NCBI RefSeq assembly: GCF_051873555.1
Contig: NZ_JBJEEY010000157.1
Span: 3,566 to 27,565, forward strand
DNA length: 24,000 nt
Source: Floccifex sp.
GTDB lineage: Bacteria > Bacillota_I > Bacilli_A > Erysipelotrichales > Erysipelotrichaceae
Direction: 5' to 3'
Position numbers and translations under genes: made by a program. The notes below the pieces were generated by a model that did not search any database, was not told the DNA's origin, and saw nothing but the letters and a program-made list of their open reading frames with translations. Positions within the stretch are counted from its first letter, which is position 1, and each line of letters starts with the position of its first letter. Positions 9,694 through 24,000 of the stretch are shown piece by piece.

Positions 9694-10901
9694 AGTCTCT
9701 CCATAATAAATTTTCGAACACGAGAAATAAAATAAAGCGATCCACAAATTAATAAAGAATCTCTATTTTTTTGAATAAAATCTTCATAATTTGAAATCAA
9801 AGACACATTATGATTTAAAAAACACTGTGCATTGGCTTTTCGAATATGCTCAAATTCACATACAAAAATCGAATTTGAAATCTTTTCTAATTCTGTTAAC
9901 ATAGCATCATATGGCTTATCTTTTAAAGCACTAAATAAAATTTTTAAATTGGGAATATTCTGACAAGAATAAACTACTTCTTTGATTCCTTCTACATTAT
10001 GTGCTCCATCTAAAATAATAAAAGGATCCCTTGATACAATTTCAAATCGTCCTTTCCAATGAAAATGAGATAAACCATTTCGAATATCCATTTCATCAAA
10101 AGTTAAAACACGATTTTCTTTTAACCATTCCAATGCCTGAATTGCCAAAGAAAGATTTTGAATTTGATACAAAGCAAGCGTCGGTACTTGAATATCATGA
10201 TAAGAAAGTACATTCAAATGAAGACAAGAATCCACAAATCCATTTCCTTCTTGTGCTAAACGAAAAATACTTTGTTTAAACTGACAAACACTTTTAAAAA
10301 CATCTAAACACTCTTGTTTTCTTTCTCCAGTCATCAACATAGAATGATTCTTAACAATGCCTGCTTTCTTTAAAGCAATTTCTTCATAACTATTTCCTAA
10401 ATAATCACAGTGATCTAAGCCAATATTGGTGATTATTGATAAAATCGAATCAATCACATTGGTCGCATCATCGATTCCACCCATACCAACTTCATAAATC
10501 GCAAAATCCACTTTCTTTTCTAAAAAATATAAAAACGAAACAAAGACATCGGCTTCAAAACTCGACAATCCATAGTCTTTCCATTCTTCAAAATATGCAT
10601 CTATATACGTTTCATATTTTTCTTTTGAAATGCGTTTTCCATTGATTCGAATGGAATCAAAATCCGATTCCATACAAGGAGAAGAATACACTCCAATCCG
10701 ATAACCAGCTTCCATAAGAATTTGTTCCATGGCATAGCTTGTTGACCCTTTTCCATTGGTTCCCGTTACATGAATACACTTTAGTCGTTTCTGAAAATTA
10801 TGTTTGTCATCCATATATTGTCTAAACGCATTCAAAGAAATGGAATCCAATCCAAAGACATGACCTTTTTGCAGAAAATCCATTGCTTGTTTATAATCCA
10901 T
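9690..10901 (-). CDS. folC: Folylpolyglutamate synthase / dihydrofolate synthase
   Basis: 403 aa. Mur-ligase P-loop VTGTNGKGST and a FolC-like overall layout (...ITNIGLDHCDYLG..., ...ILDGAHN...). There is no SD; see the leaderless finding. Confidence 0.9.
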   Translation of the reverse strand: MDYKQAMDFLQKGHVFGLDSISLNAFRQYMDDKHNFQKRLKCIHVTGTNGKGSTSYAMEQILMEAGYRIGVYSSPCMESDFDSIRINGKRISKEKYETYIDAYFEEWKDYGLSSFEADVFVSFLYFLEKKVDFAIYEVGMGGIDDATNVIDSILSIITNIGLDHCDYLGNSYEEIALKKAGIVKNHSMLMTGERKQECLDVFKSVCQFKQSIFRLAQEGNGFVDSCLHLNVLSYHDIQVPTLALYQIQNLSLAIQALEWLKENRVLTFDEMDIRNGLSHFHWKGRFEIVSRDPFIILDGAHNVEGIKEVVYSCQNIPNLKILFSALKDKPYDAMLTELEKISNSIFVCEFEHIRKANAQCFLNHNVSLISNYEDFIQKNRDSLLICGSLYFISRVRKFIMERL

Positions 10902-11468: not shown

Positions 11469-11929
11469 ATAAAGATTTTAATAAAATGATGCAAGATTCA
11501 AAAGACATGCCTAAAATCCAGATCATTACAGATTCTAAAACCATTGAAAAATACGGAGGAAATCAAATGGCTTTAGCCCCTTGTATCGAATATGACCATA
11601 TTATGAAACAAATTCCATTTGGAAAAGTAATCACAACAAAAGACATTCGAAACTATCTTGCGAAAAAATATAATGCCGATTTCTGCGATCCCATGACCGC
11701 TGGCATCTTTATTTCCATTGTGGCCTGGGCTAGTTTTCAAAGAAAAGAAGATAAAACACCATATTGGCGTACACTAAAAACAAATGGCGAACTAAATCCA
11801 AAATATCCTGGTGGTATTGAAAAACAGAAAATGGACCTGGAAAATGAAGGACATATTATTGTTCAAAAAGGAAAAACAAATATTCGTTATTTTGTCAAAG
11901 ATTATCAAGACGTATTATTCATAAAATAA
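11465..11929 (+). CDS. MGMT-family / alkyltransferase-like (Atl-type) DNA-binding protein without the active-site Cys
   Basis: 154 aa. Its ATG overlaps the nrdG TGA (ATGA at 11465-11468). IPFGKVITTKDIRNYLA...TPYWRTLKTNGEL...QKMDLENEGHIIV parallels the MGMT DNA-binding-domain pattern (iP.GkV.tY.diA...PwHRVv...G.l). YWR replaces PCHR, so no acceptor Cys is present. Confidence 0.6.
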   Translation: MNKDFNKMMQDSKDMPKIQIITDSKTIEKYGGNQMALAPCIEYDHIMKQIPFGKVITTKDIRNYLAKKYNADFCDPMTAGIFISIVAWASFQRKEDKTPYWRTLKTNGELNPKYPGGIEKQKMDLENEGHIIVQKGKTNIRYFVKDYQDVLFIK

Positions 11930-11949
11930 GCACCTTTGCGGTGCTTATT
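11925..11949. terminator. Hairpin between the convergent Atl-like gene and cutC (probable shared terminator)
   Basis: 10-bp stem AATAAGCACC (11925-11934) / GGTGCTTATT (11940-11949) with loop TTTGC. The flanking T-richness is modest, so efficiency is uncertain. Confidence 0.5.
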
Positions 11950-12679
11950 CTGTTTCTACTAATTTTTCAACTAATTCTTGTTTGACAACATCAAATTGAT
12001 TGGTATTTCCAATATAGCTATACGAAACAAAGGCATTAAAAGTTGTTGGATCGACTTTATATCCTTTGCAAGACGAATGAACTTGTGTAACCTTAGTCAT
12101 TTCCTTCATTTCCTGAATATTTTGATCATTCATACCCGATCCCACTAAAATTTCAATTTGATGACCATACTTTGCCTGTAAATCACGAATCAATTCCATT
12201 CCATCCATAGCCTTCGATTTTTGTCCACTTGTTAAAATGCGATCACATTTTAATTGAATCAAAGTTTCAATAGCTTCATATGGATTTCTTGTCACATCAA
12301 ATGCACGATGAAAAACTGCTTCTTTTCCATATTGATGAATCAAATCAATCATTTGTTTTGTAGCCTGTATTTGAATGGTTCCATCTTCATTTAAAAAACC
12401 AAACGCAATTCCATCAGCTCCATTTTCTAAAAACAATTTCGCATCTTCCATCATAATTTGACAATCCCATGTATCGTAACAAAAACCAGCCCCACGAGGT
12501 CGAACCATGCAAATTACTTTTAAGTTTGTATCTTTTTTTACACGTATTAGAGTAGCTAAAGAAGGTGTCAATCCTCCAACACTTAAAGCGCTATTCAATT
12601 CCACTCTTTTGGCTCCGCCTTTATAAGCAGCCATACAATCTTGATACGATCCCGTACATATTTCAATCACAAACTCCAC
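11945..12679 (-). CDS. cutC: CutC-family (copper homeostasis protein CutC-like) TIM-barrel protein
   Basis: 244 aa. VIEICTGSYQDCMAAYKGGAKRVELNSALSVGGLTPS matches the CutC N-terminal pattern. It starts with GTG (12679 or 12670) and overlaps the end of the M20 gene. Confidence 0.85.
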   Translation of the reverse strand: MEFVIEICTGSYQDCMAAYKGGAKRVELNSALSVGGLTPSLATLIRVKKDTNLKVICMVRPRGAGFCYDTWDCQIMMEDAKLFLENGADGIAFGFLNEDGTIQIQATKQMIDLIHQYGKEAVFHRAFDVTRNPYEAIETLIQLKCDRILTSGQKSKAMDGMELIRDLQAKYGHQIEILVGSGMNDQNIQEMKEMTKVTQVHSSCKGYKVDPTTFNAFVSYSYIGNTNQFDVVKQELVEKLVETE

Positions 12680-13781
12680 CTACTCTCAATATACTTAATG
12701 CATAAATTTTCGCATTTAATATTAAATCCTTGCGATCCATCCACTCATTTGGATTGTGTCCAATTCCTTTTTGACCTGGAAAACTTGGACCAAATGGAAC
12801 AATATTTGGCATACATTTCGCATATGTTCCTCCTGTTGTTGTAACCGGTGTTCCATCCAATCCTGTTACTTTTTCATATGTTTCTTTTAAAGTCTGACAC
12901 AAAAATCCTTTTTTATCAAATCGAACCGGATTATAGTTTTGTATGCAGCGAATAGATAAAGGAAATTGACATTTCTTTTGAATTCTTTGATAAATTTCTT
13001 CATTAGATATACAAGCCGGATAGCTTAAAGTAAATTCAAAACAAAGTTCATTATCTTTGATTTTACTTTTTTTATTTCTAAGCTGCATTTTACCAAATTC
13101 AGGATCCTCTATGTCCAATCCCAATTTATTGGCATATTCATTACTGGACAAAATATATTCATTCACAAATTCATTAAATTCATTTGTATATTGTCTATCA
13201 CAATACACCTGATAGATGGCTCTTCCTCTTTCTGCATAGACAACTGGATATTTACAATCCGGTGTCCATCCCATAATTGGTGGTTTTCTAACTTCTAAAT
13301 AATGATGAAGATCTTGAAAGCCTGTTTCTTCATTGGTTCCAAATAAAATATAAACTGGATGCTTTAATTGAATGTTACATTCCTTAATTGCATAAAGAGC
13401 ATATAAATTGGCTAAGATAGGGCCTTTATTATCTAATATTCCACGAGCATAGATTCTTCCATTTTCGTCTTCGTAACAAGAAAAAGGATCGTGATTCCAT
13501 CCATCACCGACTTCAACTACATCTAAATGTCCCATAATACCAATATAATCATCGCCTGTTCCATATTTCGCGATTCCAACAACATGGTCAACATTTTCTG
13601 TTTCAAATCCTAGATTTTTAGCCAAAGAAAGCGTTGCATTCAAACAATCATCGATATCTTTTCCAAAAGGATAGTCTTTGCTACCTTTTGTTTGAACGCT
13701 TTTCATTCTCGTAATAGATTTAATGCCTTCAATCATTTCATCCGCAATTTCATCAATTTTTTGCAGAACCCTTTCTTCCAT
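12663..13781 (-). CDS. M20-family metallopeptidase (PepV/Sapep-like dipeptidase)
   Basis: 372 aa. Metal-binding and catalytic motifs GHLDVVEVGDGW and RGILDNKGP, plus TNEETG. It is shorter than the canonical PepV. Confidence 0.85.
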   Translation of the reverse strand: MEERVLQKIDEIADEMIEGIKSITRMKSVQTKGSKDYPFGKDIDDCLNATLSLAKNLGFETENVDHVVGIAKYGTGDDYIGIMGHLDVVEVGDGWNHDPFSCYEDENGRIYARGILDNKGPILANLYALYAIKECNIQLKHPVYILFGTNEETGFQDLHHYLEVRKPPIMGWTPDCKYPVVYAERGRAIYQVYCDRQYTNEFNEFVNEYILSSNEYANKLGLDIEDPEFGKMQLRNKKSKIKDNELCFEFTLSYPACISNEEIYQRIQKKCQFPLSIRCIQNYNPVRFDKKGFLCQTLKETYEKVTGLDGTPVTTTGGTYAKCMPNIVPFGPSFPGQKGIGHNPNEWMDRKDLILNAKIYALSILRVGGVCD

Positions 13782-13787
13782 ACGATC

Positions 13788-14750
13788 CTACTTTCTAATC
13801 AATGGAGCCGTTCGACTAGCCATATATTGATCCATCCATTCCTTGCTTGCCTGTTCAAAATATTGTTTTCCATTTTCATCAAACTTAACAAGATAGACGG
13901 TTGGTTTTTCTTTTTCCGTAGCCACTGCAAAAGAGAACCCTTCAATATTGGTTGCACATCCCCATTCTCCTTTGTTGTTCATCGCAATTAATGACATATC
14001 CCCGGCTTTTCCACGACGTTCTTTTAGTTCTAAATCAAATTCCTTCACAGCTTTTTCACAAGCCAGTTGTGGATGCATTCCTTCTTTCATTAATCGAACA
14101 ATTTCATAGGAAACACATCCCTTCATAACGTCTTCTCCTAAACCAGTTGCACTAGCGCCTCCTACTTTTGAATCCACATAGAAACCAGAACCCGATACTG
14201 GAGAATCTCCCACACGTCCAGGGTGTTTCATAAACAATCCACTTGTACTTGTCGCACTTGTCATGGATCCAAATGAATCCAGACAAACCATTCCCACTGT
14301 GTCATGACCAGAATACGGTTTTAATTCTGTATCTTTACTTGTTTCCACAACACGATTGTGATAATGAATTTGTGCTCTTTCTGTTAACATGTTTTTTCGT
14401 TGAAATCCATGTCGATGTGCAAATTTTTCAGCGCCTTGTCCCACTAAAAAATTATTGACAGGATACGTCGATAGTTTTCGGGCAATGGAAACTGGATTGG
14501 CAAAATCTTTAATAGCTCCAACACATCCTACATCCAATGTATCTCCATCCATAAAAGCAGCATCTAGTTCAACTTCCATTTCTTCATTTGGCAATCCACC
14601 ATAGCCTACGCTTTTATAAAATTCAAAGTCTTCTACAGCTTTAATAGCTGTTTCAATGGCGTCTTTGGCATTTGACTGATTGGCAAGCATTTTATCAGCT
14701 TCACTGATTCCTTCTAATGCCATTCTCCATGTTGCGATAATTCCATACAT
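13788..14750 (-). CDS. N4-(beta-N-acetylglucosaminyl)-L-asparaginase-like Ntn hydrolase (glycosylasparaginase; asparaginase_2 family)
   Basis: Track ORF trimmed to the ATG at 14750, which has SD AAGGAG 8 nt upstream. The autoprocessing/nucleophile motif SGHDTVGMVCLD is the HDT type seen in glycosylasparaginases, not the GT type of plant-type or isoaspartyl enzymes. Downstream it has GDSPVSGSGFYVD...GASATGLGEDVMK. Confidence 0.82.
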   Translation of the reverse strand: MYGIIATWRMALEGISEADKMLANQSNAKDAIETAIKAVEDFEFYKSVGYGGLPNEEMEVELDAAFMDGDTLDVGCVGAIKDFANPVSIARKLSTYPVNNFLVGQGAEKFAHRHGFQRKNMLTERAQIHYHNRVVETSKDTELKPYSGHDTVGMVCLDSFGSMTSATSTSGLFMKHPGRVGDSPVSGSGFYVDSKVGGASATGLGEDVMKGCVSYEIVRLMKEGMHPQLACEKAVKEFDLELKERRGKAGDMSLIAMNNKGEWGCATNIEGFSFAVATEKEKPTVYLVKFDENGKQYFEQASKEWMDQYMASRTAPLIRK

Positions 14751-14771
14751 ATTTTTTACTCCTTTATAAAT

Positions 14772-14798
14772 AAAGAAGAAGGCCATGCCTTCTTCTTT
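14772..14798 (-). terminator. Intra-operon hairpin (partial terminator/attenuator or processing site) between the GrdB-like gene and the glycosylasparaginase gene
   Basis: 12-bp stem AAAGAAGAAGGC (14772-14783) / GCCTTCTTCTTT (14787-14798) with loop CAT. On the minus-strand RNA it starts at the stop codon and is followed by UAUUUAUAAAGGAG, which is U-rich and then the next SD. Confidence 0.5.
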
Positions 14799-15325
14799 TA
14801 ATGAAAGCAAACTTCTTCTTTCAGTTTACTTGTATCTTTCTTTTCAACCAGTGCCTTAGCAACTTTACACATATTATTTAAAGCCTCGTTCAATCCTGTT
14901 CCACCTTTTTTCGGTGTTTTTACTATACAGATTTTATCTTTAAATTGCCCAATAACTTCTTCATTTTCCTTTGACATAGCAGCTAAAGCAGGAATCGATG
15001 TTTTTTCATGAATGTTATAAGCAACATGAGCTGCCATATTCGCATAATCAGCATAATTGAAACAAGGCCCACACATCACAACATCTGGTTTTAATTTTTG
15101 AATCATAGCTGTTAATTTGCGAATGACTTCTTCTTTATTTTCATTGTAATATCCATTTCCACAATATAAACAAGCTACAACCTTTGCATCGATTTTCTTT
15201 AAAAATTGTCCCATCATTATAGCTGGACCAACAGGTTCCTTTTTTGCGCCTAGTGGAACCATTTTATCGTCTTTTGTTCCTTCACCTGATTGAATCTGAT
15301 CATAAATCATTATTACTTTTAACAT
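14798..15325 (-). CDS. GrdB-related protein: homolog of the N-terminal domain of glycine/sarcosine/betaine reductase component B, with no Sec-containing part
   Basis: 175 aa with SD GAGGAT. By-eye similarity to the GrdB N-terminus as I remember it: LYCGNGYYNENKEEVIRKLTAMIQKLKPDVVMCGPCFNYADYANMAAHVA vs VICGDSYFGENMDEAKAKILEMVKGYEPDLFIAGPAFNAGRYGTACGTIA. Confidence 0.65.
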   Translation of the reverse strand: MLKVIMIYDQIQSGEGTKDDKMVPLGAKKEPVGPAIMMGQFLKKIDAKVVACLYCGNGYYNENKEEVIRKLTAMIQKLKPDVVMCGPCFNYADYANMAAHVAYNIHEKTSIPALAAMSKENEEVIGQFKDKICIVKTPKKGGTGLNEALNNMCKVAKALVEKKDTSKLKEEVCFH

Positions 15326-15339
15326 ATAATATCCTCATC

Positions 15340-16758
15340 TTATAGATCATCAAATGATAATTCATCTAAATTAATATCGTCTTCTTCACTTTCCTGGCTC
15401 ATTGCTTCTTGTTCGTCTTTCAAATATTGATTGTCCATAACTTTGATAAATGGCAAGTATACAAAGACACCTAAAATCAATAATACACCTTGGAAAATAG
15501 CTCCAACCCAGTTTGTTGCTAAGAATCCAGAAATAATAACTGGTGTTGTCCATGGGATGTTGATTCCATTACATGGTGGGAACAATCCTAATTTCATCGC
15601 AAAGTAAGATAAAATGATGTTCATTGTTGGTACAAGAATAAATGGAATAATAATTGTAGGGTTCAATACAATTGGTAATCCAAATACAATTGGTTCATTG
15701 ATTCCAAAAATACCAGGAACCAAAGACAATTTTGCTAATTCTTTAATTCGTTTTGATTTACAGAATAATAACATCGCAATCAATAAAGAAAGAGTTGATC
15801 CACATCCACCAAATGTCGCAAATAAATCCTGGAATTGTTGTGAAATAATATGCGCTCCATTGGCAACTGTATAAGAAGCAGCTCCAACTTCACGATATAA
15901 GTTTAAGTTTTCAAGTGCTAATGTTTGTAGAATTGGATTGAATACAGCTCCTACAACCGATCCACCATTGACTCCAAAGAACCAGAATAAATGTAAGAAA
16001 ATATAGGCAATAATCATAGCCCCTAATGTATCTCCCAATCCCAATAAAGGTGTTTGTAAGAATGTGAAGATAAATGTAAAGGCATCTGTTCCGCATGCAA
16101 CAAAGATTGTGTTAATCAAGAAGAATGCTGTCATTACTATTCCAGCTGGAATTAAGGCAGCAAAGGATTGTACAACTGTTGGAGGAACACCAGCTGGCAT
16201 TTTAATTGTCCATCCTTTTTTCTCAACCCATGCATAAATATGAACAGAAACCAGGGCACAAATGATTCCCACAAAGATTCCTTTGGCTCCTAGCCATCCT
16301 GTACTAATACCAGAAACGGTAGCTGTTGTTCCTTCTGCAAATTCAACGGCAGCTCCTGTTGAATCAAATAAAGCTTTAACGCCTCCTGTAAAACGATATG
16401 GCATTAAAATAAACCAGGACATGATACTTACAGCAGCTCCAAAGATTCCGCTTGTATTTAATTGCTTGGCAAAGGAGTATCCAATTCCCATTGTCGCAAA
16501 AATAGCCATAATTGCAAATGTCGCATCGGATTGTTTTTCCAATAAAGCGGCTAATGAAGTCGCACCAATTTGTACATTGGAAATAAAGTTTGTCCATGCT
16601 GGAATTGGAAAGTTTGCCAGCAATAAGAAAATAGATCCAACGATTAATAAAGGCGTTGAAACAAGGAAACCATCACGAATGGCTGTTAAATATTTATTGC
16701 GTCCAATTGCTTCAGCCATAGGCGTCATGGTTTTTTCTAATTTTTCCATTAAATTCAT
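15340..16758 (-). CDS. PTS lactose/cellobiose/chitobiose-family EIIC permease
   Basis: 472-aa polytopic protein. The N-terminus MEKLEKTMTPMAEAIGRNKYLTAIRDGF and GINEPIVFGLPIVLNP are typical of EIIC(lac/cel). It has an unusual acidic C-terminal tail. Confidence 0.93.
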   Translation of the reverse strand: MNLMEKLEKTMTPMAEAIGRNKYLTAIRDGFLVSTPLLIVGSIFLLLANFPIPAWTNFISNVQIGATSLAALLEKQSDATFAIMAIFATMGIGYSFAKQLNTSGIFGAAVSIMSWFILMPYRFTGGVKALFDSTGAAVEFAEGTTATVSGISTGWLGAKGIFVGIICALVSVHIYAWVEKKGWTIKMPAGVPPTVVQSFAALIPAGIVMTAFFLINTIFVACGTDAFTFIFTFLQTPLLGLGDTLGAMIIAYIFLHLFWFFGVNGGSVVGAVFNPILQTLALENLNLYREVGAASYTVANGAHIISQQFQDLFATFGGCGSTLSLLIAMLLFCKSKRIKELAKLSLVPGIFGINEPIVFGLPIVLNPTIIIPFILVPTMNIILSYFAMKLGLFPPCNGINIPWTTPVIISGFLATNWVGAIFQGVLLILGVFVYLPFIKVMDNQYLKDEQEAMSQESEEDDINLDELSFDDL

Positions 16759-16783
16759 AATTAACTTCTCCTAATACTTCTTA

Positions 16784-17107
16784 TTATTTTTTTGTCTGTT
16801 TCATCAACTTAATAGCTGATTTCAATACTTTTTCTCCTGCCATCATTCCATAATCTCCTGAATCAATGACAGCAATAGGAATTCCTGTAGAACCAAATTG
16901 TTCCACAGTTCCTTGATACATATATTTGACTTGTGGTCCTAATAAAATGCAGTCAGGGCGATCATGTTCAATGATTTCGGCTAATTTGTTGTGTGGATGT
17001 GCTTTTACTTCAATTGGTAAGTTATGTGCATTGGCGCAATCTTGCATCTTACTTGCCAACATACTTGTTGACATTCCAGCACTACAAAACAAATAAATCT
17101 TTTTCAT
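16784..17107 (-). CDS. PTS lactose/cellobiose-family EIIB
   Basis: 107 aa. MKKIYLFCSAGMSTSMLASKM carries the phospho-Cys in the canonical position. SD AAGGAGG. Confidence 0.92.
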   Translation of the reverse strand: MKKIYLFCSAGMSTSMLASKMQDCANAHNLPIEVKAHPHNKLAEIIEHDRPDCILLGPQVKYMYQGTVEQFGSTGIPIAVIDSGDYGMMAGEKVLKSAIKLMKQTKK

Positions 17108-17128: not shown

Positions 17129-17183
17129 ATTATAAAAGTTTATTTTTTTTTAATTTGTCTTTGCCTTTCCTAGCCCTAGGAAA
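17129..17183 (-). promoter_or_regulatory. Internal promoter plus 18-bp palindromic operator in front of EIIB-EIIC-enzymes
   Basis: TTTCCTAGCCCTAGGAAA (17166-17183), 31 nt, TATAAT (complement of 17129-17134). There is no -35 (AAATTA). SD and ATG at 17107. Confidence 0.55.
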
Positions 17184-17187
17184 GAAA

Positions 17188-17505
17188 TTATTTCATTGAA
17201 TCCATTTTTTTATAACAATCAATCAATTCTTCTGCCATTAACTTAATTGTTTCTGCACTCATTAATTGATCTTCTGAATGAACCAATAATAAAGTTGTTT
17301 GAACTGGATTTCCAGAAGCTTCTTGTTGAATTAAAGACGCATGAGACGTATGTCCCTGTACATAATTTTGATCGCCTTCTTTGATTTTTTCTTTTGCTAA
17401 TTCAAAGTTGCCATTTTTTGCTTCACGAATGGCTTCGACGTAACAACTCTTTGCCAATCCAACATTTGAAATCAATTGAAAACACGCTAATTCTAAATTT
17501 TCCAT
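17188..17505 (-). CDS. PTS lactose/cellobiose-family EIIA
   Basis: 105 aa, helical. NYVQGHTSHASLIQQEASG contains the phospho-His context, followed by LLLVHSEDQLMSAE. Confidence 0.92.
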   Translation of the reverse strand: MENLELACFQLISNVGLAKSCYVEAIREAKNGNFELAKEKIKEGDQNYVQGHTSHASLIQQEASGNPVQTTLLLVHSEDQLMSAETIKLMAEELIDCYKKMDSMK

Positions 17506-17507
17506 TT

Positions 17508-18110
17508 TTATTCTCCTTTTATTAAAATCACTTTTGTATGTGCAATACGATCATGTATCATTCGATGACTATTTGAAAACATACAAATCGCTGCGCTTAT
17601 AATACTGATACTTAAACCTATTATCATCAAAATCCCTGTAAAATTTAAATTCATAACCAATGACAATAAATCATGCCACAAACTCGAAACATTATAAAAA
17701 GTTCCTTCTAATATCATGATGCCCAGTATTTGCCGAATCATTAAAGTTTTTAAATCAATTTCTTCATTATTTGTTTTTACTATTTTAAAATTCATCATTT
17801 TCTTTCCAAGTGTTTGTCCTTTATATACCTTATATGGAATCCATACATAATAAAAAACAGAAAAACAAATCGCAAGGCATCCTGCTAATACTGCACTTTC
17901 TTTAGAAATTTCACTTTGAATCATCCACAAATTTAAATGACCCATTTCCTCTAAATTATGTGTTTGCGACATCCAGATCAAACACATAGGAAACATCATA
18001 AACAAAGCTCCAACAAACCAGTCAATTAAATAGGCTGTAAATCTTTTGGATGTACTGACATCGCTTTTTGAATCATTTAGGCATAGTTTCAATTTAAAAA
18101 ATAAGTTCAT
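17508..18110 (-). CDS. RDD-family membrane protein
   Basis: 200 aa. RFTAYLIDWFVGALFMMFP (Arg/Asp of the RDD motif), three or more TM segments, and C-terminal MIHDRIAHTKVI, typical of RDD domains. Gaps of 3 nt and 2 nt separate it from the flanking genes. Confidence 0.75.
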   Translation of the reverse strand: MNLFFKLKLCLNDSKSDVSTSKRFTAYLIDWFVGALFMMFPMCLIWMSQTHNLEEMGHLNLWMIQSEISKESAVLAGCLAICFSVFYYVWIPYKVYKGQTLGKKMMNFKIVKTNNEEIDLKTLMIRQILGIMILEGTFYNVSSLWHDLLSLVMNLNFTGILMIIGLSISIISAAICMFSNSHRMIHDRIAHTKVILIKGE

Positions 18111-18113
18111 ATT

Positions 18114-20030
18114 TTATCCTTTCATGATTTGATTGATGAATTCTTCGTGTGTTTTCACATTTAATAAATGAGTCAATTTAGAAGAATTTGAAACAATCGT
18201 AGTCAACCAGTCAAAGAAAATACGCAACAAATCACGATCTACATCTTCAATTGCTAATAAAATAACAAGTCTGACACTGTAATCATGCCATTGCATTGCA
18301 TCTTTGAGAAGTACAATGGATATACAAGATTCAATTGCCGAGTGATTCAATGCATGTGGAAGCGCAAATCCATTGTAGAAAGAAGTAGAAGATATTTTTT
18401 CTCTTTGAAGAACACTATCTACAAATAATTCATCGACATATTCATTTTTAACGAGTTCATCGCAAATAAATCGAATTAAATTTTCAGGTGTTGAAGCTTC
18501 GACATTGGTAAAAAACAACTCTGGTTTAATGACATCTTTGATCATCGTTTCAAATTGTTTCTTATTTTTCTTTTTATCGAGTAAATTTAATGCCTGAAAA
18601 ATGTGACTTTCATCTTCGGTATCTACAAACAACGAAATTTGAATGGTTGGTATGTCTAATGCATGTTTTAAAGGTGAAGTCGTTAATATTAAATCTGGTT
18701 TTAAATCCAATACATCTTCTTCATTAAAAAAATTCGTTTGATCCACGATTTCCATTCTTTCTGAAAATCGTGTTTCAATTTTTTGAATGCATAAATTTGA
18801 AAGTGGTAAATCTCTAGGAAAAATCATGAGTACTTGATACTTATCTGAAAAATTATTTTTTTCATAAGAACTTCCTAGATGCAAAGCCATAAAACCAATT
18901 TCATTTTCTTTTACTTCAAGTCCTGTAATTTCTGTAAATGAACGACAAGCATAGATGCTCATATCAAATACAAGTGGATATTTTCTTTTGATTTCTTCTA
19001 AATATACATTCTGAATAGTAGAACCATATAAAATACGATGAACTAAAGAACGAATATGCAATCCCAAGCCATATTTCAAATCACTGTCTCTTCTTAAATC
19101 TACGTCATAGGCATCATAAATACTTTGTAAAATGGTATGAACAATATCACTGATTAAATATGTTTTTCCTAGAATATCAATTTGATTGGAAGTAAATTCT
19201 TCACTTTTCTTTCCCATCAACAATAAAGACAACAATTGTATTTCACTGATTTGGACTTTAATAAAGATACGATTGGCACATTTCTGATAAAATTCATTTG
19301 CGATTTTAAATTCCAGTGAATCCATTAAATTTACGTTATCTTTGGCAATCTGGCTCACATAATTTTGATGAATCATACGTTCAATCGAAACGCCAATATG
19401 CATCAATACCATTGGCATAGCCGTTTCTCGAATGTGATAGTCATACTTAACAAGCGTTTCATCTAAAATACTTTTTAATACTTTTAAATCAAAATCTTTA
19501 AATAAACCTGCAATATTATCCAAATTCAAGAAATTCCCTTTTGTTTCCTCTGCCAGCAAATCCTTATACAATTCTCTTTTACTGTTTTCAGGACCTTTTA
19601 ATGAAATAAAATTTTTAGAACGAATAATTTGTAAATCCTTATATTCACTAATAATTCTCTTCACTTTTTTTAAATCATTATCAATTGTATACCCACTAAT
19701 AAATACTTCATTCTGCAGATTCAATAAATTAATTTCCTTTTTATTCGTCAACAACTCTCGAATAATATAATTACATCTTTCTTTTGGCGTCTGTGGAATA
19801 CAAGATCTCAGTTCCAGTGAAAGAATGGAAACCGTATCTGGATTGATTCGATATCCGCTTTTTATACTCGATTCAATGACATTTTTATTATAAAATCGAT
19901 TAATCGCATCAATATCCGAACGAATCGTACGATCCGATACTTCCATCAAATGAGAAATTTCTTTTCCTGTTTTCCAATCTTGCGATTCATTTAACAGTTT
20001 TATGATTCTTTCTTGTCTTTCATTCAACAA
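18114..20030 (-). CDS. PRD-domain transcriptional activator (LicR/MtlR/ManR type; often auto-annotated as a BglG-family antiterminator)
   Basis: 638 aa. N-terminal HTH (ERQERIIKLLNESQDWKTGKEISHLMEVSDRTIRSDIDAINRF), two PRD-like regions with His (VLMHIGVSIERM, LGLHIRSLVHRI, FMALHLGSS), an EIIB-like segment and a C-terminal EIIA(Mtl/Fru)-like domain (NGFALPHALNHS). It starts with TTG, with SD AAGGAGGGAG 8 nt upstream. Confidence 0.9.
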   Translation of the reverse strand: MLNERQERIIKLLNESQDWKTGKEISHLMEVSDRTIRSDIDAINRFYNKNVIESSIKSGYRINPDTVSILSLELRSCIPQTPKERCNYIIRELLTNKKEINLLNLQNEVFISGYTIDNDLKKVKRIISEYKDLQIIRSKNFISLKGPENSKRELYKDLLAEETKGNFLNLDNIAGLFKDFDLKVLKSILDETLVKYDYHIRETAMPMVLMHIGVSIERMIHQNYVSQIAKDNVNLMDSLEFKIANEFYQKCANRIFIKVQISEIQLLSLLLMGKKSEEFTSNQIDILGKTYLISDIVHTILQSIYDAYDVDLRRDSDLKYGLGLHIRSLVHRILYGSTIQNVYLEEIKRKYPLVFDMSIYACRSFTEITGLEVKENEIGFMALHLGSSYEKNNFSDKYQVLMIFPRDLPLSNLCIQKIETRFSERMEIVDQTNFFNEEDVLDLKPDLILTTSPLKHALDIPTIQISLFVDTEDESHIFQALNLLDKKKNKKQFETMIKDVIKPELFFTNVEASTPENLIRFICDELVKNEYVDELFVDSVLQREKISSTSFYNGFALPHALNHSAIESCISIVLLKDAMQWHDYSVRLVILLAIEDVDRDLLRIFFDWLTTIVSNSSKLTHLLNVKTHEEFINQIMKG

Positions 20031-20054
20031 AATGTCTCCCTCCTTTTCAATTTG

Positions 20055-20145
20055 ATTATATAGAACAAAAAAAATAATTTATGTTTTTCATTTCCTAGTA
20101 TTAGGAAATCACATCTTATTTCTTTTTTTCTTTCATTTATATAAT
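20055..20145. promoter_or_regulatory. Divergent promoter region with a central 18-bp palindromic operator (PRD regulator operon / yitT-family gene)
   Basis: TTTCCTAGTATTAGGAAA (20091-20108). On the minus strand TATAAT lies at the complement of 20055-20060, 30 nt away. On the plus strand TATAAT lies at 20140-20145, 31 nt away. Confidence 0.55.
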
Positions 20146-20163
20146 GACATAGGTGATATATAT

Positions 20164-21045
20164 ATGAAACAAATACTAAAAAAGCTAACAAAAAACAAAC
20201 AAATTCGACTTCTTATTTCAATTATAATGATACTCTCTAGTTCTTTTTTACAAGTTGTTGTGATCAAAGTCTTTATGAACCCGTGTAACTTATTGACAAG
20301 TGGATTTACAGGTGTAGCAATTTTAATCAACAAAATTACGCAATTATTTGGCATTGAATTCTCCACATCTTTAGGAATTTTATTATTGAATATTCCAGCT
20401 GCTTTATTATGTTTTAAAGGCGTATCCAAACGATTTGTTTTCTTAAGCTGTTTACAATTTACAACTACTTCTCTTTTATTGAAAATTCTTGAATTCGATC
20501 CATTTTTTGACGATCGCATGTTAAATGTATTGTTTGGTGGATTCTTATATGGAATGTGCTCTGTATTGGCTTTAAAAGCCGATGGATCCACAGGTGGAAC
20601 CGATTTTATTGCGCTTTATGTATCCAATAAAATCAATCGCAGTATATGGGATTTTGTGTTTGTTTTTAACTGCACGATGCTCCTTATTTTTGGATGGCTC
20701 TTTGGATGGATTCACGCAGGATATTCTATTATATTCCAGTTGATTTCAACCCAGACCATTTCTCGTTTCTATCATCGCTATGCCCAGGTTTCCATTGAAA
20801 TCACAACACGATATCCAGAAACCATTGGATTGGCATTTACACGCAGTTTCAAACACGGTATGAGCATTGTTAAAGCTTATGGTGCATTTAGTAAACAAGA
20901 ATATTATTTATGTAAAACTGTAGTGAGTTCTTATGAAGAAAGTGATGTCATTCATATTATTCAAAGTGTCGATCCAGATGCGATTATTCATTCATATAAA
21001 ATCAATCACTTCTATGGTAATTTTTATTTAAAACCAATTGAATAA
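20164..21045 (+). CDS. YitT-family membrane protein (DUF161 repeats plus DUF2179)
   Basis: 293 aa. Pattern ...FMNPCNLLTSGFTGVAILINKITQLFGIEFSTSLGILLLNIPAALLCFKGVSKRF..., a second repeat with GSTGGTDFIALYV, and a soluble C-terminal domain. SD AGGTGA. Confidence 0.85.
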   Translation: MKQILKKLTKNKQIRLLISIIMILSSSFLQVVVIKVFMNPCNLLTSGFTGVAILINKITQLFGIEFSTSLGILLLNIPAALLCFKGVSKRFVFLSCLQFTTTSLLLKILEFDPFFDDRMLNVLFGGFLYGMCSVLALKADGSTGGTDFIALYVSNKINRSIWDFVFVFNCTMLLIFGWLFGWIHAGYSIIFQLISTQTISRFYHRYAQVSIEITTRYPETIGLAFTRSFKHGMSIVKAYGAFSKQEYYLCKTVVSSYEESDVIHIIQSVDPDAIIHSYKINHFYGNFYLKPIE

Positions 21046-21076
21046 AGCCAGCAAATAAGCTGGCTTTATATTTTTT
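21044..21076. terminator. Bidirectional intrinsic terminator between the yitT-family gene and the GNAT gene
   Basis: AAAGCCAGC (21044-21052), loop AAATAA, GCTGGCTTT (21059-21067), then ATATTTTTT. An A-rich left flank serves the minus strand. Confidence 0.8.
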
Positions 21077-21635
21077 CAATACAATGATGAATCGATTCAT
21101 CCCAATACTTTCTATAAACAAAATCACTTTGATCAAAATTAAGCTGATACATTCGAAACCAAACCAGAATATCTTTGGGTTGCCACTTTTCTTCATATGA
21201 ATAACAATACTTCATCCCAATTTTTTTCATGACATTTCCACTTCTTGGATTGTTTCTATCATGTGTTGCCGTAATAAAAGGCAATCCATCTTTTCTTATT
21301 TGTTCTATAACAGCCATTGCCGCTTCTGTAACAATGCCTTTATGCCAAAATTCTTTTCGTAATCCATATCCAAAATCATGAGATTCATTTAGATGTACTT
21401 GAACATAACCAATAGGAATATTATTTTCTTTCAAACAAATCGCAAATACATATCCATTTGATTTAGAAAATCTTTCTTCAAAAAAAGAATAAGTTTCTTC
21501 TAAATTTTTTACAGGAAACCAAGGTAAAAATGTATTCACTTCTTCATCTTTTAAAATCAAATAAAGTGCTTGTATATCTTGTTGTGTAAACTTTCGTAAA
21601 ATAAGGCGTTGTGTGAATAAAACAGGTGTATTCAT
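21066..21635 (-). CDS. GNAT-family N-acetyltransferase (RimJ/RimL-like)
   Basis: 189 aa. FTQRLILRKFTQQDIQALYLILKDEEVNTFLPW and HKGIVTEAAMAVIE are typical of this GNAT subgroup. It starts 10 nt after the MupG-family gene, with no obvious SD. Confidence 0.85.
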   Translation of the reverse strand: MNTPVLFTQRLILRKFTQQDIQALYLILKDEEVNTFLPWFPVKNLEETYSFFEERFSKSNGYVFAICLKENNIPIGYVQVHLNESHDFGYGLRKEFWHKGIVTEAAMAVIEQIRKDGLPFITATHDRNNPRSGNVMKKIGMKYCYSYEEKWQPKDILVWFRMYQLNFDQSDFVYRKYWDESIHHCIEKI

Positions 21636-21645
21636 TTAATTGTGG

Positions 21646-22740
21646 CTATTTCACAAATCCAAATAGATGATCATGGTGTTTTTCCATTTCATCGAGGATA
21701 ATGTGTTCTTCTTTTGGAATGGAACCAATTAAATTTCGATTTCCATCACATGGAATTGGCTTTAAAATCACTTCCAATTCCCCTCTATAACGAGCTAAAT
21801 TATCATTTACACAAACAACATCTCCGCGTTCAAAATATGTTTTATTGGGATTACGATATGGAATAGACTTATTTTTGTAGTCTAGTCTAGGCCAGGAAGA
21901 ACGAATGAAAAATTCACAATGATCAGGTCTTCCTGTGTGATTAAAATTATAAAGAAGATCAATTTCTTCTTGTGTTACATCTTCACATAAATCAATCGAT
22001 ACCGTTGTTTTGGTTAAATCAATCTTTGATACTTCTTCTAGTTCTTCTTGAGAAGCATAGGCATTTCCAAATAAAATATCATCAATTCTTTCTGTTGCGA
22101 TTAAATGACGCGCCTGAACACTAACAGGTAAATTTCGATGTTGTTCCAATGTACACAAGCCATCAAATACAGGCCAAGGTCCATATGTATTTTCGGATTG
22201 ACTATTAATAAAAGCAGCCGTTGTTAATCCTAATGCATTCCATGTTTCATTGTATTCATTAAAAATATCCATACACAATCCTGTATACGTTTCTGGATAG
22301 AAATTATGGCAAACACAAATATTATCAGGATCTCCTCCATGTTTGATCAAATCTCTAACATTGGCATCGCTGCTTCCATTGAATTCAATTTTAATTCCAT
22401 ATGGATTACGAGTTAAAAGAGTATCTAAGCGATCGTCAAAATGTCCATCCAATCGAATAATATCCACTCCCATTTCATGGAATATTGAAATATCTTCTGG
22501 AGTGGCTTCTAAATGATCAAACACAAATGGTGCAGTATCAGCTGCTACAATAAACCCTAATTCATGTGCTTTTGAAATGAATTGTTTAAATTCCTTTACA
22601 ATTTCATCTTTTGGCTTAGTAACAGACAACAAACAAGTAAAAATACGTGAATACCCATACTTGGCAGCTAATTCCATATACGCTGCATCTTTTTCAAAAG
22701 TAGAGTGTTCAGGATAAACTGAAATTCCTAGTCTATGCAT
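21646..22740 (-). CDS. MupG-family (DUF871) TIM-barrel protein, putative 6-phospho-glycosidase
   Basis: 364 aa. MHRLGISVYPEHS...YMELAAKYGYSRIFTCLLSV...GFIVAADTAPFVFDHL...GVDIIRLDGHF matches the DUF871/MupG family pattern. SD AAGAGG. Confidence 0.85.
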   Translation of the reverse strand: MHRLGISVYPEHSTFEKDAAYMELAAKYGYSRIFTCLLSVTKPKDEIVKEFKQFISKAHELGFIVAADTAPFVFDHLEATPEDISIFHEMGVDIIRLDGHFDDRLDTLLTRNPYGIKIEFNGSSDANVRDLIKHGGDPDNICVCHNFYPETYTGLCMDIFNEYNETWNALGLTTAAFINSQSENTYGPWPVFDGLCTLEQHRNLPVSVQARHLIATERIDDILFGNAYASQEELEEVSKIDLTKTTVSIDLCEDVTQEEIDLLYNFNHTGRPDHCEFFIRSSWPRLDYKNKSIPYRNPNKTYFERGDVVCVNDNLARYRGELEVILKPIPCDGNRNLIGSIPKEEHIILDEMEKHHDHLFGFVK

Positions 22741-22765
22741 AGTAATACCTCTTTTCTATATATTC

Positions 22766-22819
22766 ATTATAGATAGAGGAATTTTATATAAATTGAGACA
22801 ATTTCCTAGTCCTAGGAAA
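22766..22819 (-). promoter_or_regulatory. Promoter plus 18-bp palindromic operator in front of the MupG-family gene
   Basis: TTTCCTAGTCCTAGGAAA (22802-22819), 30 nt, TATAAT (complement of 22766-22771). There is no -35 (AATTTA). SD and ATG at 22740. Confidence 0.55.
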
Positions 22820-24000
22820 CATTATTCAACCGAAACATATTTTGATTTTTACTTCTTGGTTTTTCTGGATTTGTCATTTTTAGTTTTCCAGTTTCAATTA
22901 AAGGCTGAATATATTCTCTTGAAACAAAAGCAATTGTTTTAATTCCTAAAAAATCGGTAATTTCTTGTCTAGTTTTTGGTACTTTACAAAATGATATTAA
23001 ATCCATATCACTCCGGGTATTTTGATCATTACACAAAGTAACCACAAATTCATTTCTTTTATTTTCAAAAACAGGTTCTGGTAAACCATATTCTTTCATT
23101 TCCCTATAAATAGCAGAAATACCAGAATATCTGTTTTCGGTTTTTAGTAAAAATTCAGACATAGTTGCTAATGCTGGATTTCTCAAATTCGATCTAGCCT
23201 TTCCTAAATCTTTTACAGTCATTCTTCCATATAAACTTCCCGGACTATGTATTTCTAATCGATTTGAAAAGAAACAAATTTGGATTGGCGTTCCTTCTGT
23301 ATAGATGCTATAGTCACGATGAATCAATACATTCAAAATAATTTCTCGAATCGCATTAACAGGATATTCCATTCAATCTTCTCTTTTACCGTTTTCTGGA
23401 TGAATAATTGTTTTTATTTTCATATTTCGCTTACAAAACGCAATGGCATCCTCTAACATTTCAGACAAAGTCCCTTCGATTCGTTTATTATCAAGAAAAC
23501 GTATTCCATCCAAAGTAATATTTCTCCTGGAACAACAATGGCTGCAATTGATAATTGTGGCAACAATCCTTGTGGATATATGCCAAAATTCAAAACAGAA
23601 GAAAGAGTTGAAATTTTATCACGAGTAATCGACAACAATTCAAACATTTGTTCTTCGAAAAGTTTTGAAAATCCTGGTCGATTCATTTTCATTTGTAATA
23701 CGAAATTATTTATATCTGTTTCTCTTAATAAAGATGAATTTGCTCTTTCAATTTTTCTTTCATCATCATGAACATGTGATTTATAAGATTCAAAATGATA
23801 TATTTCATAATCTGTCATTGGTAAATCTGCATCACCTACTCAAACATAGAATCCTTTAATTTTTCCATGTCCTGCATAATAACAAGGGCGCAAAACCAAA
23901 TCAACAGAAGGAATTTTAGCAGAACATATATTTACGCCTTGACAGATTGTACTTGTAAATACTGCACGAACTTTAGGATTCATTTGATCACATTGTTCTG
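22812..24000 (-). pseudogene. Decayed COG2865-type gene (AlbA_2 / HATPase_c_4 / C-terminal wHTH 'ATP-binding protein'); 5' end lies outside the window
   Basis: Three collinear pieces. Piece 1 is 24000-23843 (...RPCYYAGHGKIKGFYV), ending at an in-frame TGA (23842-23840). Piece 2 is the 121-aa ORF in the same frame (VGDADLPMTDYEIY...LNFGIYPQGLLPQLSIAAIVVPGE). It needs one extra A in the A3 run at 23521-23523 to continue as NITLDGIRFLDNKRIEGTLSEMLEDAIAFCKRNM...GKRED. A second in-frame TGA follows at 23375-23373. Piece 3 is the 186-aa ORF (MEYPVNAIREIILNVLIHRDY...), which carries the HATPase_c_4 hallmark. Confidence 0.65.

What the first reader, a model, noticed from the sequence alone, without database searches (positions are those of the whole stretch)
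17129..22819. An 18-bp palindrome TTTCCTAGnnCTAGGAAA occurs exactly three times, always 30-31 nt upstream of a -35-less TATAAT: a compact activator regulon
Seen directly in the sequence: TTTCCTAGCCCTAGGAAA (17166-17183), TTTCCTAGTATTAGGAAA (20091-20108) and TTTCCTAGTCCTAGGAAA (22802-22819). I found no other copy in the 24 kb. Reading the minus strand, each copy is followed by 31, 30 and 30 nt and then a perfect TATAAT (17134-17129, 20060-20055, 22771-22766). The hexamers at the 17-nt -35 position are AAATTA, CATAAA and AATTTA, so no usable -35 is present. An SD and start codon follow 21-25 nt later, for PTS EIIB (17107), the PRD regulator (TTG 20030) and the MupG-family gene (22740). This geometry centres the palindrome about 51-52 bp upstream of the predicted TSS, an activator-type position. 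CTAG is generally a depleted tetranucleotide in bacteria, which makes chance recurrence of a CTAG-containing palindrome unlikely. PRD activators of the MtlR/ManR/LicR type are known to bind imperfect palindromes just upstream of weak -35 regions. The simplest inference is that the 638-aa PRD regulator encoded here autoregulates and drives all three units.
Basis: partly seen in the sequence, partly recalled or inferred. Interest (0 to 1): 0.8.

Follow-up and report, generated by a model that had tools for sequence, protein, structure and literature searches.

The report
Operator sites of a PTS-controlled activator
Three copies of a short DNA palindrome mark where a sugar-transport-sensing activator protein most likely switches on four neighbouring gene units for a probable glyco-amino-acid uptake pathway in a gut bacterium; this is a well-supported but fairly ordinary kind of gene switch.

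Summary
TTTCCTAGnnCTAGGAAA occurs three times in the window and nowhere else, even with 3 mismatches. Each copy lies 30-31 nt upstream of a perfect TATAAT with no usable -35.

Comparative data show a conserved cis-element, TTTCCTA-N4/5-TAGGAAA. It is present in 78 of 80 orthologous loci from Erysipelotrichaceae, Clostridium, Peptacetobacter, Lachnospiraceae and Streptococcus. It always precedes the first gene of a unit, with a -10 hexamer 31-32 nt downstream and no information at -35.

A blind metagenome scan for palindrome plus TATAAT returned about 88% of its hits directly upstream of these cluster genes or of LicR-like regulators.

The only conserved DNA-binding protein in the locus is a 638-aa MtlR/LicR-type PRD activator. 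Binding and activation are inferred, not shown.

- The CTAG core is not conserved.
- The middle palindrome also serves a divergent yitT promoter, so there are four units, not three.
- The same operator is used by LicR-like paralogues only 23-29% identical, so it is a family-wide box.

Verdict: a new member of a known kind, of moderate interest.

The parts
22802..22819 (.). Operator copy 3 (TTTCCTAGTCCTAGGAAA), upstream of the MupG-like gene; it overlaps the stop codon of the upstream 186-aa ORF
   Evidence: orthologous sites upstream of mupG in 23 genome loci; close-range footprint A4
22766..22771 (-). -10 hexamer TATAAT of the mupG-like/GNAT unit, 30 nt from the palindrome
21066..22740 (-). 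Unit 1: MupG-family 6-phospho-glycosidase-like gene (21646-22740) and GNAT acetyltransferase (21066-21635)
   Evidence: Pfam MupG_N/MupG_C and Acetyltransf_3; terminator-like hairpin at 21042-21069
20091..20108 (.). Operator copy 2 (TTTCCTAGTATTAGGAAA) in the divergent yitT/regulator intergenic region; probably used in both directions
   Evidence: the same single-palindrome, two-TATAAT layout in L087, L088, L110, L132, L138, L147, L171 and L173; footprint A2
20055..20060 (-). -10 hexamer TATAAT of the regulator unit, 30 nt from the palindrome
   Evidence: yitT is preceded by its own or a shared palindrome in 11 genome loci
20164..21045 (+). Unit 2: YitT-family membrane protein (YitT_membrane + DUF2179)
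   Evidence: conserved cluster member
17188..20030 (-). Unit 3: MtlR/LicR-type PRD regulator (18114-20030, 638 aa), RDD-family membrane protein (17508-18110) and EIIA-Lac/Cel (17188-17505)
   Evidence: Pfam HTH_11, Mga, PRD, PTS_EIIA_2, RDD, PTS_IIA; model pLDDT 81; best fold matches AtxA/Mga-family regulators and EIIA-Mtl
17166..17183 (.). Operator copy 1 (TTTCCTAGCCCTAGGAAA) between EIIA and EIIB
   Evidence: footprint A3
17129..17134 (-). -10 hexamer TATAAT of the EIIB unit, 31 nt from the palindrome
11945..17107 (-). Unit 4: EIIB (16784-17107), EIIC (15340-16758), GrdB-like no-Se protein (14798-15325), Asparaginase_2/glycosylasparaginase-like (13788-14810), PepV-like M20 dipeptidase (12663-13781) and CutC (11945-12679)
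   Evidence: terminator-like hairpin at 11925-11949; gene order conserved in most of the 80 loci

Best explanation
The three palindromes are operators (consensus TTTCCTA-N4-TAGGAAA, two 7-bp half-sites 11 bp centre to centre). The binding protein is most likely a dimer of the 638-aa MtlR/LicR-type PRD activator encoded in the locus.

Each operator spans about -61 to -44 and is centred near -52. That is 30-31 bp upstream of a consensus -10 (TATAAT) and about 8 bp upstream of where a -35 box would be, but none exists. These promoters should therefore be silent unless the bound activator recruits sigma-A RNA polymerase.

Four units are controlled:
- mupG-like plus GNAT
- yitT, divergent, sharing the middle operator
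- regulator-RDD-EIIA, which gives positive autoregulation
- EIIB-EIIC-grdB-like-glycosylasparaginase-like-pepV-like-cutC

By analogy with MtlR, LicR and CelR, the regulator's activity would be set by PTS phosphorylation. HPr~P on PRD2 would activate it. Phosphorylation by the cognate EIIA/EIIB, when no substrate is being transported, would inactivate it. The substrate is probably a glyco-amino acid or glycopeptide such as GlcNAc-Asn.

Shown: the motif, its geometry, its conservation and its genomic distribution. Inferred: which protein binds, that the effect is activation, the phosphorylation logic and the substrate.
For: 1. The motif is non-random in the window: 3 hits against 0.11 expected, and the composite with TATAAT gives 4 against 0.

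2. Among 80 loci fetched through regulator homologues (40-65% identity, at least 5 families), 78 carry TTTCCTA-N4/5-TAGGAAA. Of 175 sites with at most 1 mismatch, 158 have a -10 hexamer 29-34 nt downstream, with the mode at 31-32.

3. The sites follow the first gene of a transcription unit even where gene order is rearranged, as in L004, L026, L029 and L076.

4. Information content is high at the half-sites and the -10, and about zero from -43 to -13, so there is no -35 and no extended -10.

5. Of 83 N4 sites with at most 1 mismatch, one lies inside a recognised cluster gene.

6. A blind scan of metagenome contigs with palindrome-N30-32-TATAAT gave 128 matches. Of these, 104 lie directly upstream of cluster homologues. 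Five more lie upstream of an ASNase2 homologue, LicR-like HTH regulators or a probable peptidase. About 15 look like chance. The same pattern occurs only twice in 2.9 million viral contigs.

7. In close relatives (95%, 87%, 65% and 58% regulator identity) the half-sites, -10 and SD stay fixed while the flanks diverge.

8. The regulator has HTH_11, an Mga wHTH, a PRD and EIIA_2, with no sigma-54 or CAT domain. Its model matches AtxA/Mga-family regulators and EIIA-Mtl. H211, H325, H384 and H559 are invariant and C414 is conserved in at least 90% of sequences. These positions parallel the CelR phosphorylation sites H226, H335, H394, C413 and H577 (PMC3478281).

9. Precedent: B. subtilis MtlR activates PmtlA and its own promoter from a palindrome-containing operator 7 bp upstream of -35 (PMC3217849).
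Against: - There are no binding, TSS or expression data for this organism or any relative.
- The same operator and geometry occur next to LicR-like paralogues only 23-29% identical (L155 with GH1, L114, L136). Sequence alone therefore cannot say which LicR-type protein binds if the genome encodes several, and cross-talk is possible.
- I could not scan the rest of the Floccifex genome.
- The yitT promoter would give a leader of only about 12 nt starting at the SD, so that unit is less certain.
- The mupG operator is degenerate in two relatives.
- Pfam recognises only one PRD, and the second His of PRD1 is Leu. The phosphorylation logic may therefore differ from the textbook scheme.
Confidence: 0.8

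Rival explanations
1. The palindrome is a real operator, but it is bound by a different transcription factor: either a paralogous LicR-type regulator encoded elsewhere or an unrelated global regulator. The locus-encoded regulator would then act through another site.
For: Distant LicR-like paralogues (23-29% identity) sit next to identical palindromes. Some targets (M42 peptidase, HAD hydrolase) lie on contig stretches with no regulator nearby.
Against: 78 of 80 loci chosen only by regulator homology carry the site, usually also upstream of the regulator gene itself. In the blind scan, 7 of the 10 loci with at least 4 kb on both sides contain a REG-like gene, and the other 3 contain no cluster homologue at all. 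No other DNA-binding protein is conserved in the cluster.
Confidence: 0.1
2. The palindrome is a repressor operator. The promoters are constitutive and are shut off by a bound repressor.
For: Palindromic 18-bp sites are also typical of repressors. The direction of regulation has not been measured.
Against: The site lies wholly upstream of the polymerase footprint (-61 to -44). It keeps a strict 31-32-nt distance to the -10, and the promoters lack any -35 or extended -10. That is the signature of activator dependence. The regulator family is known as activators (PMC10864463; PMC3217849).
Confidence: 0.05
3. The palindrome acts at the RNA level, as a hairpin terminator, attenuator or antiterminator (RAT-like) target. 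This would fit the 'BglG family antiterminator' annotation of the regulator.
For: Copies 1 and 3 directly follow stop codons. Each can form an 8-9-bp hairpin of -7.9 to -10.8 kcal/mol. The terminator scan flagged 17165-17184, but on the non-coding (+) strand.
Against: - No U-run follows on the transcribed strand.
- Copy 2 lies in a divergent promoter region with no upstream gene.
- The element sits upstream of the -10 at a fixed distance in about 160 orthologous sites.
- The half-sites are sequence-invariant rather than co-varying.
- The regulator has HTH domains and no CAT RNA-binding domain.
- Rfam finds nothing there.
Confidence: 0.02
4. The copies are a chance recurrence, a dispersed repeat or a mobile-element remnant, or a restriction/methylation (CTAG) motif.
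For: CTAG-containing palindromes can be restriction-modification targets. The window is AT-rich.
Against: - Shuffles give 0.11 hits against the 3 observed.
- The CTAG positions are not conserved in orthologues.
- The flanks are not conserved.
- The distribution is almost exclusively promoter-proximal to one gene cluster.
- Only 2 hits occur in 2.9 million viral contigs.
Confidence: 0.01

Closest known systems
Bacillus subtilis MtlR with the PmtlA and PmtlR promoters (MtlR/LicR-type PRD activator)
   Same: Same regulator class: HTH, Mga-like domain, PRDs, EIIB-Gat-like domain and EIIA-Mtl. A palindrome-containing operator lies just upstream of the -35 position (7 bp in B. subtilis, about 8 bp here). 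There is positive autoregulation through a second operator at the regulator's own promoter. It is proposed to act as a class II-like activator (PMC3217849).
   Different: The MtlR operator is about 42 bp, with conserved flanks around a TTGNCACA-type palindrome, and the mtl promoters have recognisable -35 boxes. Here the conserved element is only 18-19 bp (TTTCCTA-N4/5-TAGGAAA), the flanks carry no information and there is no -35. The PTS family also differs (Lac/Cel rather than Mtl).
LicR (B. subtilis) and CelR (S. mutans, S. pneumoniae): LicR-type activators of lactose/cellobiose-family PTS operons
   Same: Same domain order and same PTS family. The phosphorylatable His/Cys positions correspond. 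Homologues of the window regulator are annotated 'lichenan operon transcriptional antiterminator'. A GH1/beta-glucoside locus with a LicR-like paralogue carries the identical palindrome (L155).
   Different: The target genes are glycosylasparaginase-like, peptidase, MupG-like, GrdB-like and YitT genes rather than 6-phospho-beta-glucosidases. A 'CelR regulatory site' has been published (Shafeeq et al. 2011, cited in PMC3585215). I could not retrieve its sequence, so I could not test whether it is the same as this box.
Enterococcus faecalis GlcNAc-L-Asn PTS / glycosylasparaginase locus (Combret et al. 2023) and the Lactobacillus casei alf-2 cluster
   Same: In both, a glycosylasparaginase is genetically linked to a transporter for an N-glycan core glyco-amino acid. 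In L. casei it is also linked to a PepV-type M20 peptidase (PMC11976118; PMC6960285). The pathway proposed here has the same logic.
   Different: E. faecalis borrows EIIA from the cel locus. L. casei uses an MFS permease and a GntR regulator. I found no report of a LicR-type regulator or of this palindrome for either. The substrate of the window's PTS has not been tested.
E. coli frvABXR (cryptic PTS + M42 peptidase FrvX + PRD-type regulator FrvR)
   Same: It combines a PTS, an M42 peptidase and an HTH_11/EIIA-type regulator. The N-terminal 60 residues are 43% identical to those of the window regulator.
   Different: There is no TTTCCTA/TAGGAAA palindrome upstream of frvA. Overall identity is 17%. 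The PTS is fructose-family.

Membership tests
MtlR/LicR-type PRD-containing transcriptional activator (the regulator) | N-terminal HTH followed by an Mga-like winged-helix domain | tested here: met
   Pfam HTH_11 at residues 5-61 and Mga at 75-158. The AlphaFold model has two N-terminal helix/strand modules. The best full-length fold matches are AtxA 4r6i, Mga-family 3sqn and MgaSpn 5way.
MtlR/LicR-type PRD-containing transcriptional activator (the regulator) | Two PRDs carrying conserved phosphorylatable histidines | tested here: inconclusive
   Pfam detects one PRD (300-387) with invariant H325 and H384. The 170-290 region is helical and PRD-like in the model, but only H211 is invariant and the second His is Leu.
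MtlR/LicR-type PRD-containing transcriptional activator (the regulator) | [quoted passage not shown] | tested here: met
   PTS_EIIA_2 at 500-635 with invariant H559. PDB sequence and fold hits to EIIA-Mtl 1a3a. An alpha/beta segment at 396-495 carries C414, conserved in at least 90% of sequences.
MtlR/LicR-type PRD-containing transcriptional activator (the regulator) | No sigma-54 AAA+ central domain (which would make it LevR-type) and no CAT RNA-binding domain (which would make it a BglG/LicT antiterminator) | tested here: met
   Neither domain appears in the Pfam or NCBIfam results. The length is 638 aa. The family definition is taken from PMC10864463.
MtlR/LicR-type PRD-containing transcriptional activator (the regulator) | Binds DNA at an operator and activates transcription under the control of PTS phosphorylation | not testable with these tools
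   Needs EMSA or footprinting, in vitro phosphorylation and reporter assays.
Activator-dependent sigma-A promoter with an MtlR-type upstream operator | A dyad-symmetric operator immediately upstream of the -35 position, at a fixed distance from the -10 | tested here: met
   The palindrome ends 30-31 nt before TATAAT in the window. The distance is 31-32 nt in most orthologous sites. That is about 8 bp upstream of a nominal -35, against 7 bp for MtlR.
Activator-dependent sigma-A promoter with an MtlR-type upstream operator | An operator also at the regulator's own promoter (autoregulation) | tested here: met
   A site lies upstream of the regulator gene in the window. In 42 orthologous cases it lies upstream of the regulator gene, and in Lachnospiraceae it lies upstream of a mupG-regulator operon. 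Regulation itself was not measured.
Activator-dependent sigma-A promoter with an MtlR-type upstream operator | A recognisable -35 box and an extended (~42 bp) conserved operator, as in B. subtilis PmtlA/PmtlR | tested here: not met
   Information content is about zero between -43 and -13 and outside the 18-mer. This is a difference in architecture, not in principle.
Intrinsic terminator or RAT/antiterminator RNA element | A hairpin followed by a U-run on the transcribed strand, or a match to a known RNA family, located in a transcribed leader | tested here: not met
   No U-run follows. The only Rfam hit in the window is an unrelated THF riboswitch. The element lies upstream of the -10.

The most novel reading that the evidence does not exclude
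TTTCCTA-N4/5-TAGGAAA is a deeply conserved 'LicR box'. It is read by regulators as little as 23% identical to one another, which control different PTS pathways (beta-glucoside GH1 loci and this glyco-amino-acid locus). Pathway specificity would then not reside in DNA recognition. It would reside elsewhere, for example in phosphorylation or membrane tethering by the cognate EIIB, or in the N4 versus N5 spacing. One palindrome could activate two divergent -35-less promoters at once. The regulon would then define an uncharacterised PTS route for host N-glycan-derived glyco-amino acids or glycopeptides in gut Firmicutes, involving unstudied GrdB-like (no-Se), RDD, YitT and MupG-like proteins.
Probability: 0.3. 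Interest if true: 0.55.

Novelty: new member of a known kind. Interest (0 to 1): 0.4.

Why it matters
The finding gives a precise, testable operator and promoter architecture for a widespread gene cluster that, as far as I could find, has not been characterised. The cluster combines a PTS, a glycosylasparaginase-like enzyme and peptidases in gut Erysipelotrichaceae, Clostridia and Lachnospiraceae. It probably scavenges glyco-amino acids derived from host N-glycans.

The motif can be used to annotate regulon members such as the M42 peptidases, a HAD hydrolase and YitT. It could also serve as the basis for inducible promoters in these poorly tractable anaerobes. Because paralogous PRD activators share one DNA box, it also poses the question of how they avoid cross-talk.

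It does not reveal a new regulatory principle.

Tried and rejected
- A full-text search for the motif string (TTTCCTAG, CTAGGAAA and others) returned only unrelated eukaryotic and primer hits.
- Four papers were not held: Combret 2023, Zeng & Burne 2009, Tobisch 1999 and the Deutscher 2014 review. Shafeeq 2011 has no PMC id in the reference list I read. I therefore could not compare this box with the published LicR/CelR sites.
- The E. coli frvABXR locus is a parallel in gene content, but no palindrome lies upstream of frvA.
- I asked whether the DNA-binding domain is more conserved than the rest of the protein among regulators that share the box. It is not clearly so: 25-35% in the HTH against 23-29% overall. 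This test was uninformative.
- Terminator and RNA readings were rejected.
- cre (CcpA) boxes were sought in the window and none was found with three standard patterns.
- The genome-contig scan did not return the Floccifex genomes themselves. I recovered close relatives by exact-protein look-up instead.
- NCBIfam gave no equivalog for the regulator, the MupG-like protein or the RDD protein.


Full report
**Observation.** No further copy exists in the 24 kb, even with three mismatches. Dinucleotide shuffles give 0.11 copies on average and never three. Read on the minus strand, each copy is followed by 31, 30 and 30 nt, a perfect TATAAT, a Shine-Dalgarno sequence and a start codon. A composite search (palindrome, 29-33 nt, TATAAT) finds four matches against zero in 100 shuffles. 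The fourth is on the plus strand at 20091-20145. The middle palindrome therefore has a TATAAT on both sides, and the second one faces yitT (start 20164). No N3, N5 or N6 spacer variants and no cre boxes occur in the window.

**Gene context.** Minus-strand genes:
- a MupG-family gene and a GNAT acetyltransferase
- a 638-aa regulator (HTH_11, Mga, PRD, EIIA_2), an RDD-family membrane protein and EIIA of the lactose/cellobiose family
- EIIB, EIIC, a GrdB-related protein without selenocysteine (NF041545), an Asparaginase_2 protein (glycosylasparaginase or isoaspartyl-peptidase type), a PepV-like M20 dipeptidase and CutC

A YitT-family gene lies on the plus strand, divergent from the regulator. A protein 100% identical to the regulator is annotated from Floccifex sp., an Erysipelotrichaceae genus.

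**Conservation in orthologous loci.** I aligned 23 regulator homologues and fetched 80 loci from one-genome-per-species contigs. The regulators are 40-65% identical to the window's.
- tblastn with the window proteins shows that the whole cluster is conserved in Erysipelotrichaceae, Clostridium, Peptacetobacter, Lachnospiraceae (Enterocloster, Hungatella, Lacrimispora) and some Streptococcus.
- The palindrome is present in these loci. Its conserved core is TTTCCTA-N4-TAGGAAA.
- When a five-base spacer is also allowed, 78 of 80 loci carry at least one site with a -10 box at the right distance. Lachnospiraceae use only N5.
- Of 175 sites with at most one mismatch, 158 have a -10-like hexamer 29-34 nt downstream, with a sharp mode at 31-32.
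- Sites track the first gene of a unit even when gene order is shuffled. Targets are the regulator (42), EIIA (47), mupG (23), EIIB (12), yitT (11) and ASNase2 (3).
- In some Erysipelotrichaceae, extra targets are an M42 peptidase and a HAD hydrolase with a divergent ABC exporter.
- Of 83 N4 sites with at most one mismatch, one lies inside a recognised cluster gene.
- Aligned on the -10, information content is high at the two half-sites and the -10 and essentially zero from -43 to -13. These promoters have no -35 and no extended -10.
- The bases that create CTAG are not conserved: position 8 is A 0.41 / G 0.29 and position 11 is T 0.47 / C 0.33.

**Independent test.** I tested this with a blind scan of metagenome contigs for TTTCCTANNNNTAGGAAA-N30-32-TATAAT, which uses no protein information.
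- 104 matches lie directly upstream of a homologue of a cluster gene: EIIA 46, regulator 26, M42 10, yitT 8, EIIB 5, HAD 5 and ASNase2 4.
- Five more lie upstream of an ASNase2 homologue, of LicR-like HTH regulators or of a probable peptidase.
- Four are at contig ends.
- About 15, representing nine distinct and mostly low-complexity sequences, look like chance.
- The same pattern occurs only twice in 2.9 million viral contigs.
- Eight metagenome loci show one palindrome flanked by TATAAT on both sides, with yitT on one side and the regulator on the other. This is the same layout as in the window.

**Close-range footprints.** Alignments with Floccifex relatives (95% and 87% regulator identity) and with more distant loci show invariant half-sites, -10 and SD amid diverging flanks. 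The mupG operator is somewhat degenerate in two relatives.

**The regulator.** Pfam finds HTH_11, Mga, one PRD and EIIA_2, with no sigma-54 or CAT domain. An AlphaFold model (pLDDT 81) best matches AtxA, Mga-family regulators and EIIA-Mtl. This fits the published definition of MtlR/LicR-type activators (PMC10864463). Invariant H211, H325, H384 and H559, with C414 conserved in at least 90% of sequences, parallel the phosphorylation sites of streptococcal CelR (PMC3478281; PMC4157138). The second histidine of PRD1 is replaced by leucine in this subfamily.

**Mechanism.** If the -10 spans -12 to -7, the operator spans about -61 to -44 and is centred near -52. It ends about 8 bp upstream of the nominal -35 position. 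This closely resembles B. subtilis MtlR. That operator lies 7 bp upstream of -35, activates PmtlA, autoregulates PmtlR, and is interpreted as class II-like (PMC3217849). The two half-sites are 11 bp apart centre to centre (12 bp in N5 sites), as expected for a dimer contacting successive major grooves. I therefore conclude that the locus-encoded regulator binds these sites and activates four promoters, one of them its own. Control by HPr and by the cognate EIIA/EIIB is inferred by family analogy. The likely substrate is a glyco-amino acid such as GlcNAc-Asn. This is inferred from the glycosylasparaginase-like and peptidase genes, from the E. faecalis GlcNAc-L-Asn PTS (PMC11976118) and from the PepV-AsnA2 linkage in L. 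casei (PMC6960285).

**Rivals.**
- RNA hairpin or terminator: excluded. No U-run follows on the transcribed strand. The position is upstream of the -10. The half-sites are invariant rather than co-varying. There is no Rfam match.
- Repressor operator: unlikely given the position and the lack of a -35.
- A different factor binds: not excluded. LicR-like paralogues only 23-29% identical carry the identical palindrome and geometry, including bidirectional use. One of them lies beside EIIB-EIIC-GH1, a classic beta-glucoside locus. The box is therefore a family-level operator, and cross-talk between paralogues is possible.

**Novelty.** PRD-containing activators with palindromic operators and autoregulation are well known. 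I found no paper in the searchable library that describes this box or the regulation of this cluster. I rate the finding a new member of a known kind, of moderate interest. The comparative support is unusually clean, and it opens a poorly characterised gut-bacterial pathway to direct testing.

Noticed in passing
window 7323-7418 (+): A THF (tetrahydrofolate) riboswitch, RF01831, at 73.9 bits (gathering score 36). It lies immediately upstream of an ECF-transporter S-component ORF (7475-8014), probably a folate-family transporter.
   Followed up: no
window 20140-20163 (+): The yitT promoter implied by the shared palindrome would give a leader of only about 12 nt, starting at the SD (GGTGAT). L006 has the same 18-nt distance from -10 to ATG. 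Other relatives have 24-31 nt.
   Followed up: partly
L050, L052, L054, L059, L067, L068, L082 etc., leader of EIIA (about 40-90 nt downstream of the -10): In Lachnospiraceae orthologues the EIIA leader contains a hairpin followed by a U-run (GATGCAGCAAAC...GTTGCATTTTCTC). This suggests an extra attenuation-type control layer that is absent from the window.
   Followed up: no
L037 12556, L039 11049, L057 3606 (EIIA promoters): An additional TAGGAAA half-site lies 13-20 nt downstream of the palindrome, between the operator and the -10, in Peptacetobacter loci.
   Followed up: no
window 17508-18110 (-) and 14798-15325 (-): An RDD-family membrane protein follows the regulator, and a GrdB-related protein without selenocysteine (NF041545) follows EIIC, in most of the orthologous loci. 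Neither has a known role in PTS pathways.
   Followed up: partly
window 18114-20030 (-), residues ~266-273: The second conserved histidine of PRD1, the negative-control site H284 in S. mutans CelR, is leucine (LLSLLLMG) in this regulator subfamily. H211, H325, H384 and H559 are invariant.
   Followed up: partly
L155 3854-3871; also L114 2940, L136 10063: LicR-like regulators only 23-29% identical to the window's carry the identical palindrome. In L155 one copy sits between the regulator and an EIIB-EIIC-GH1 (6-phospho-beta-glucosidase) operon. It has a -10 on the regulator side and a -10-like hexamer on the PTS side.
   Followed up: partly
L012 5761, L013 16390, L015 7908, L018 7192 and 14621, L024 4755, L027 7144: In several Erysipelotrichaceae the operator also precedes an M42-family peptidase (340-353 aa), and a Cof-type HAD hydrolase divergent from an ABC exporter. 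These are extra regulon members not present in the window.
   Followed up: partly
window 22812-23372 (-): A 186-aa ORF with HATPase_c_4 and Fic-like_C domains ends inside operator copy 3. It may be a short form or a remnant.
   Followed up: no
window 8001-10000: This is the lowest-GC stretch of the window (0.265-0.276) with strong negative GC skew. It encodes a 578-aa protein with a weak DUF2325 match and a Mur-ligase-like protein.
   Followed up: no
L204 7851-9870 vs window 21066-22740: Floccifex porci lacks the GNAT gene between mupG and yitT that is present in the window, so GNAT is a variable passenger of the mupG unit.
   Followed up: no
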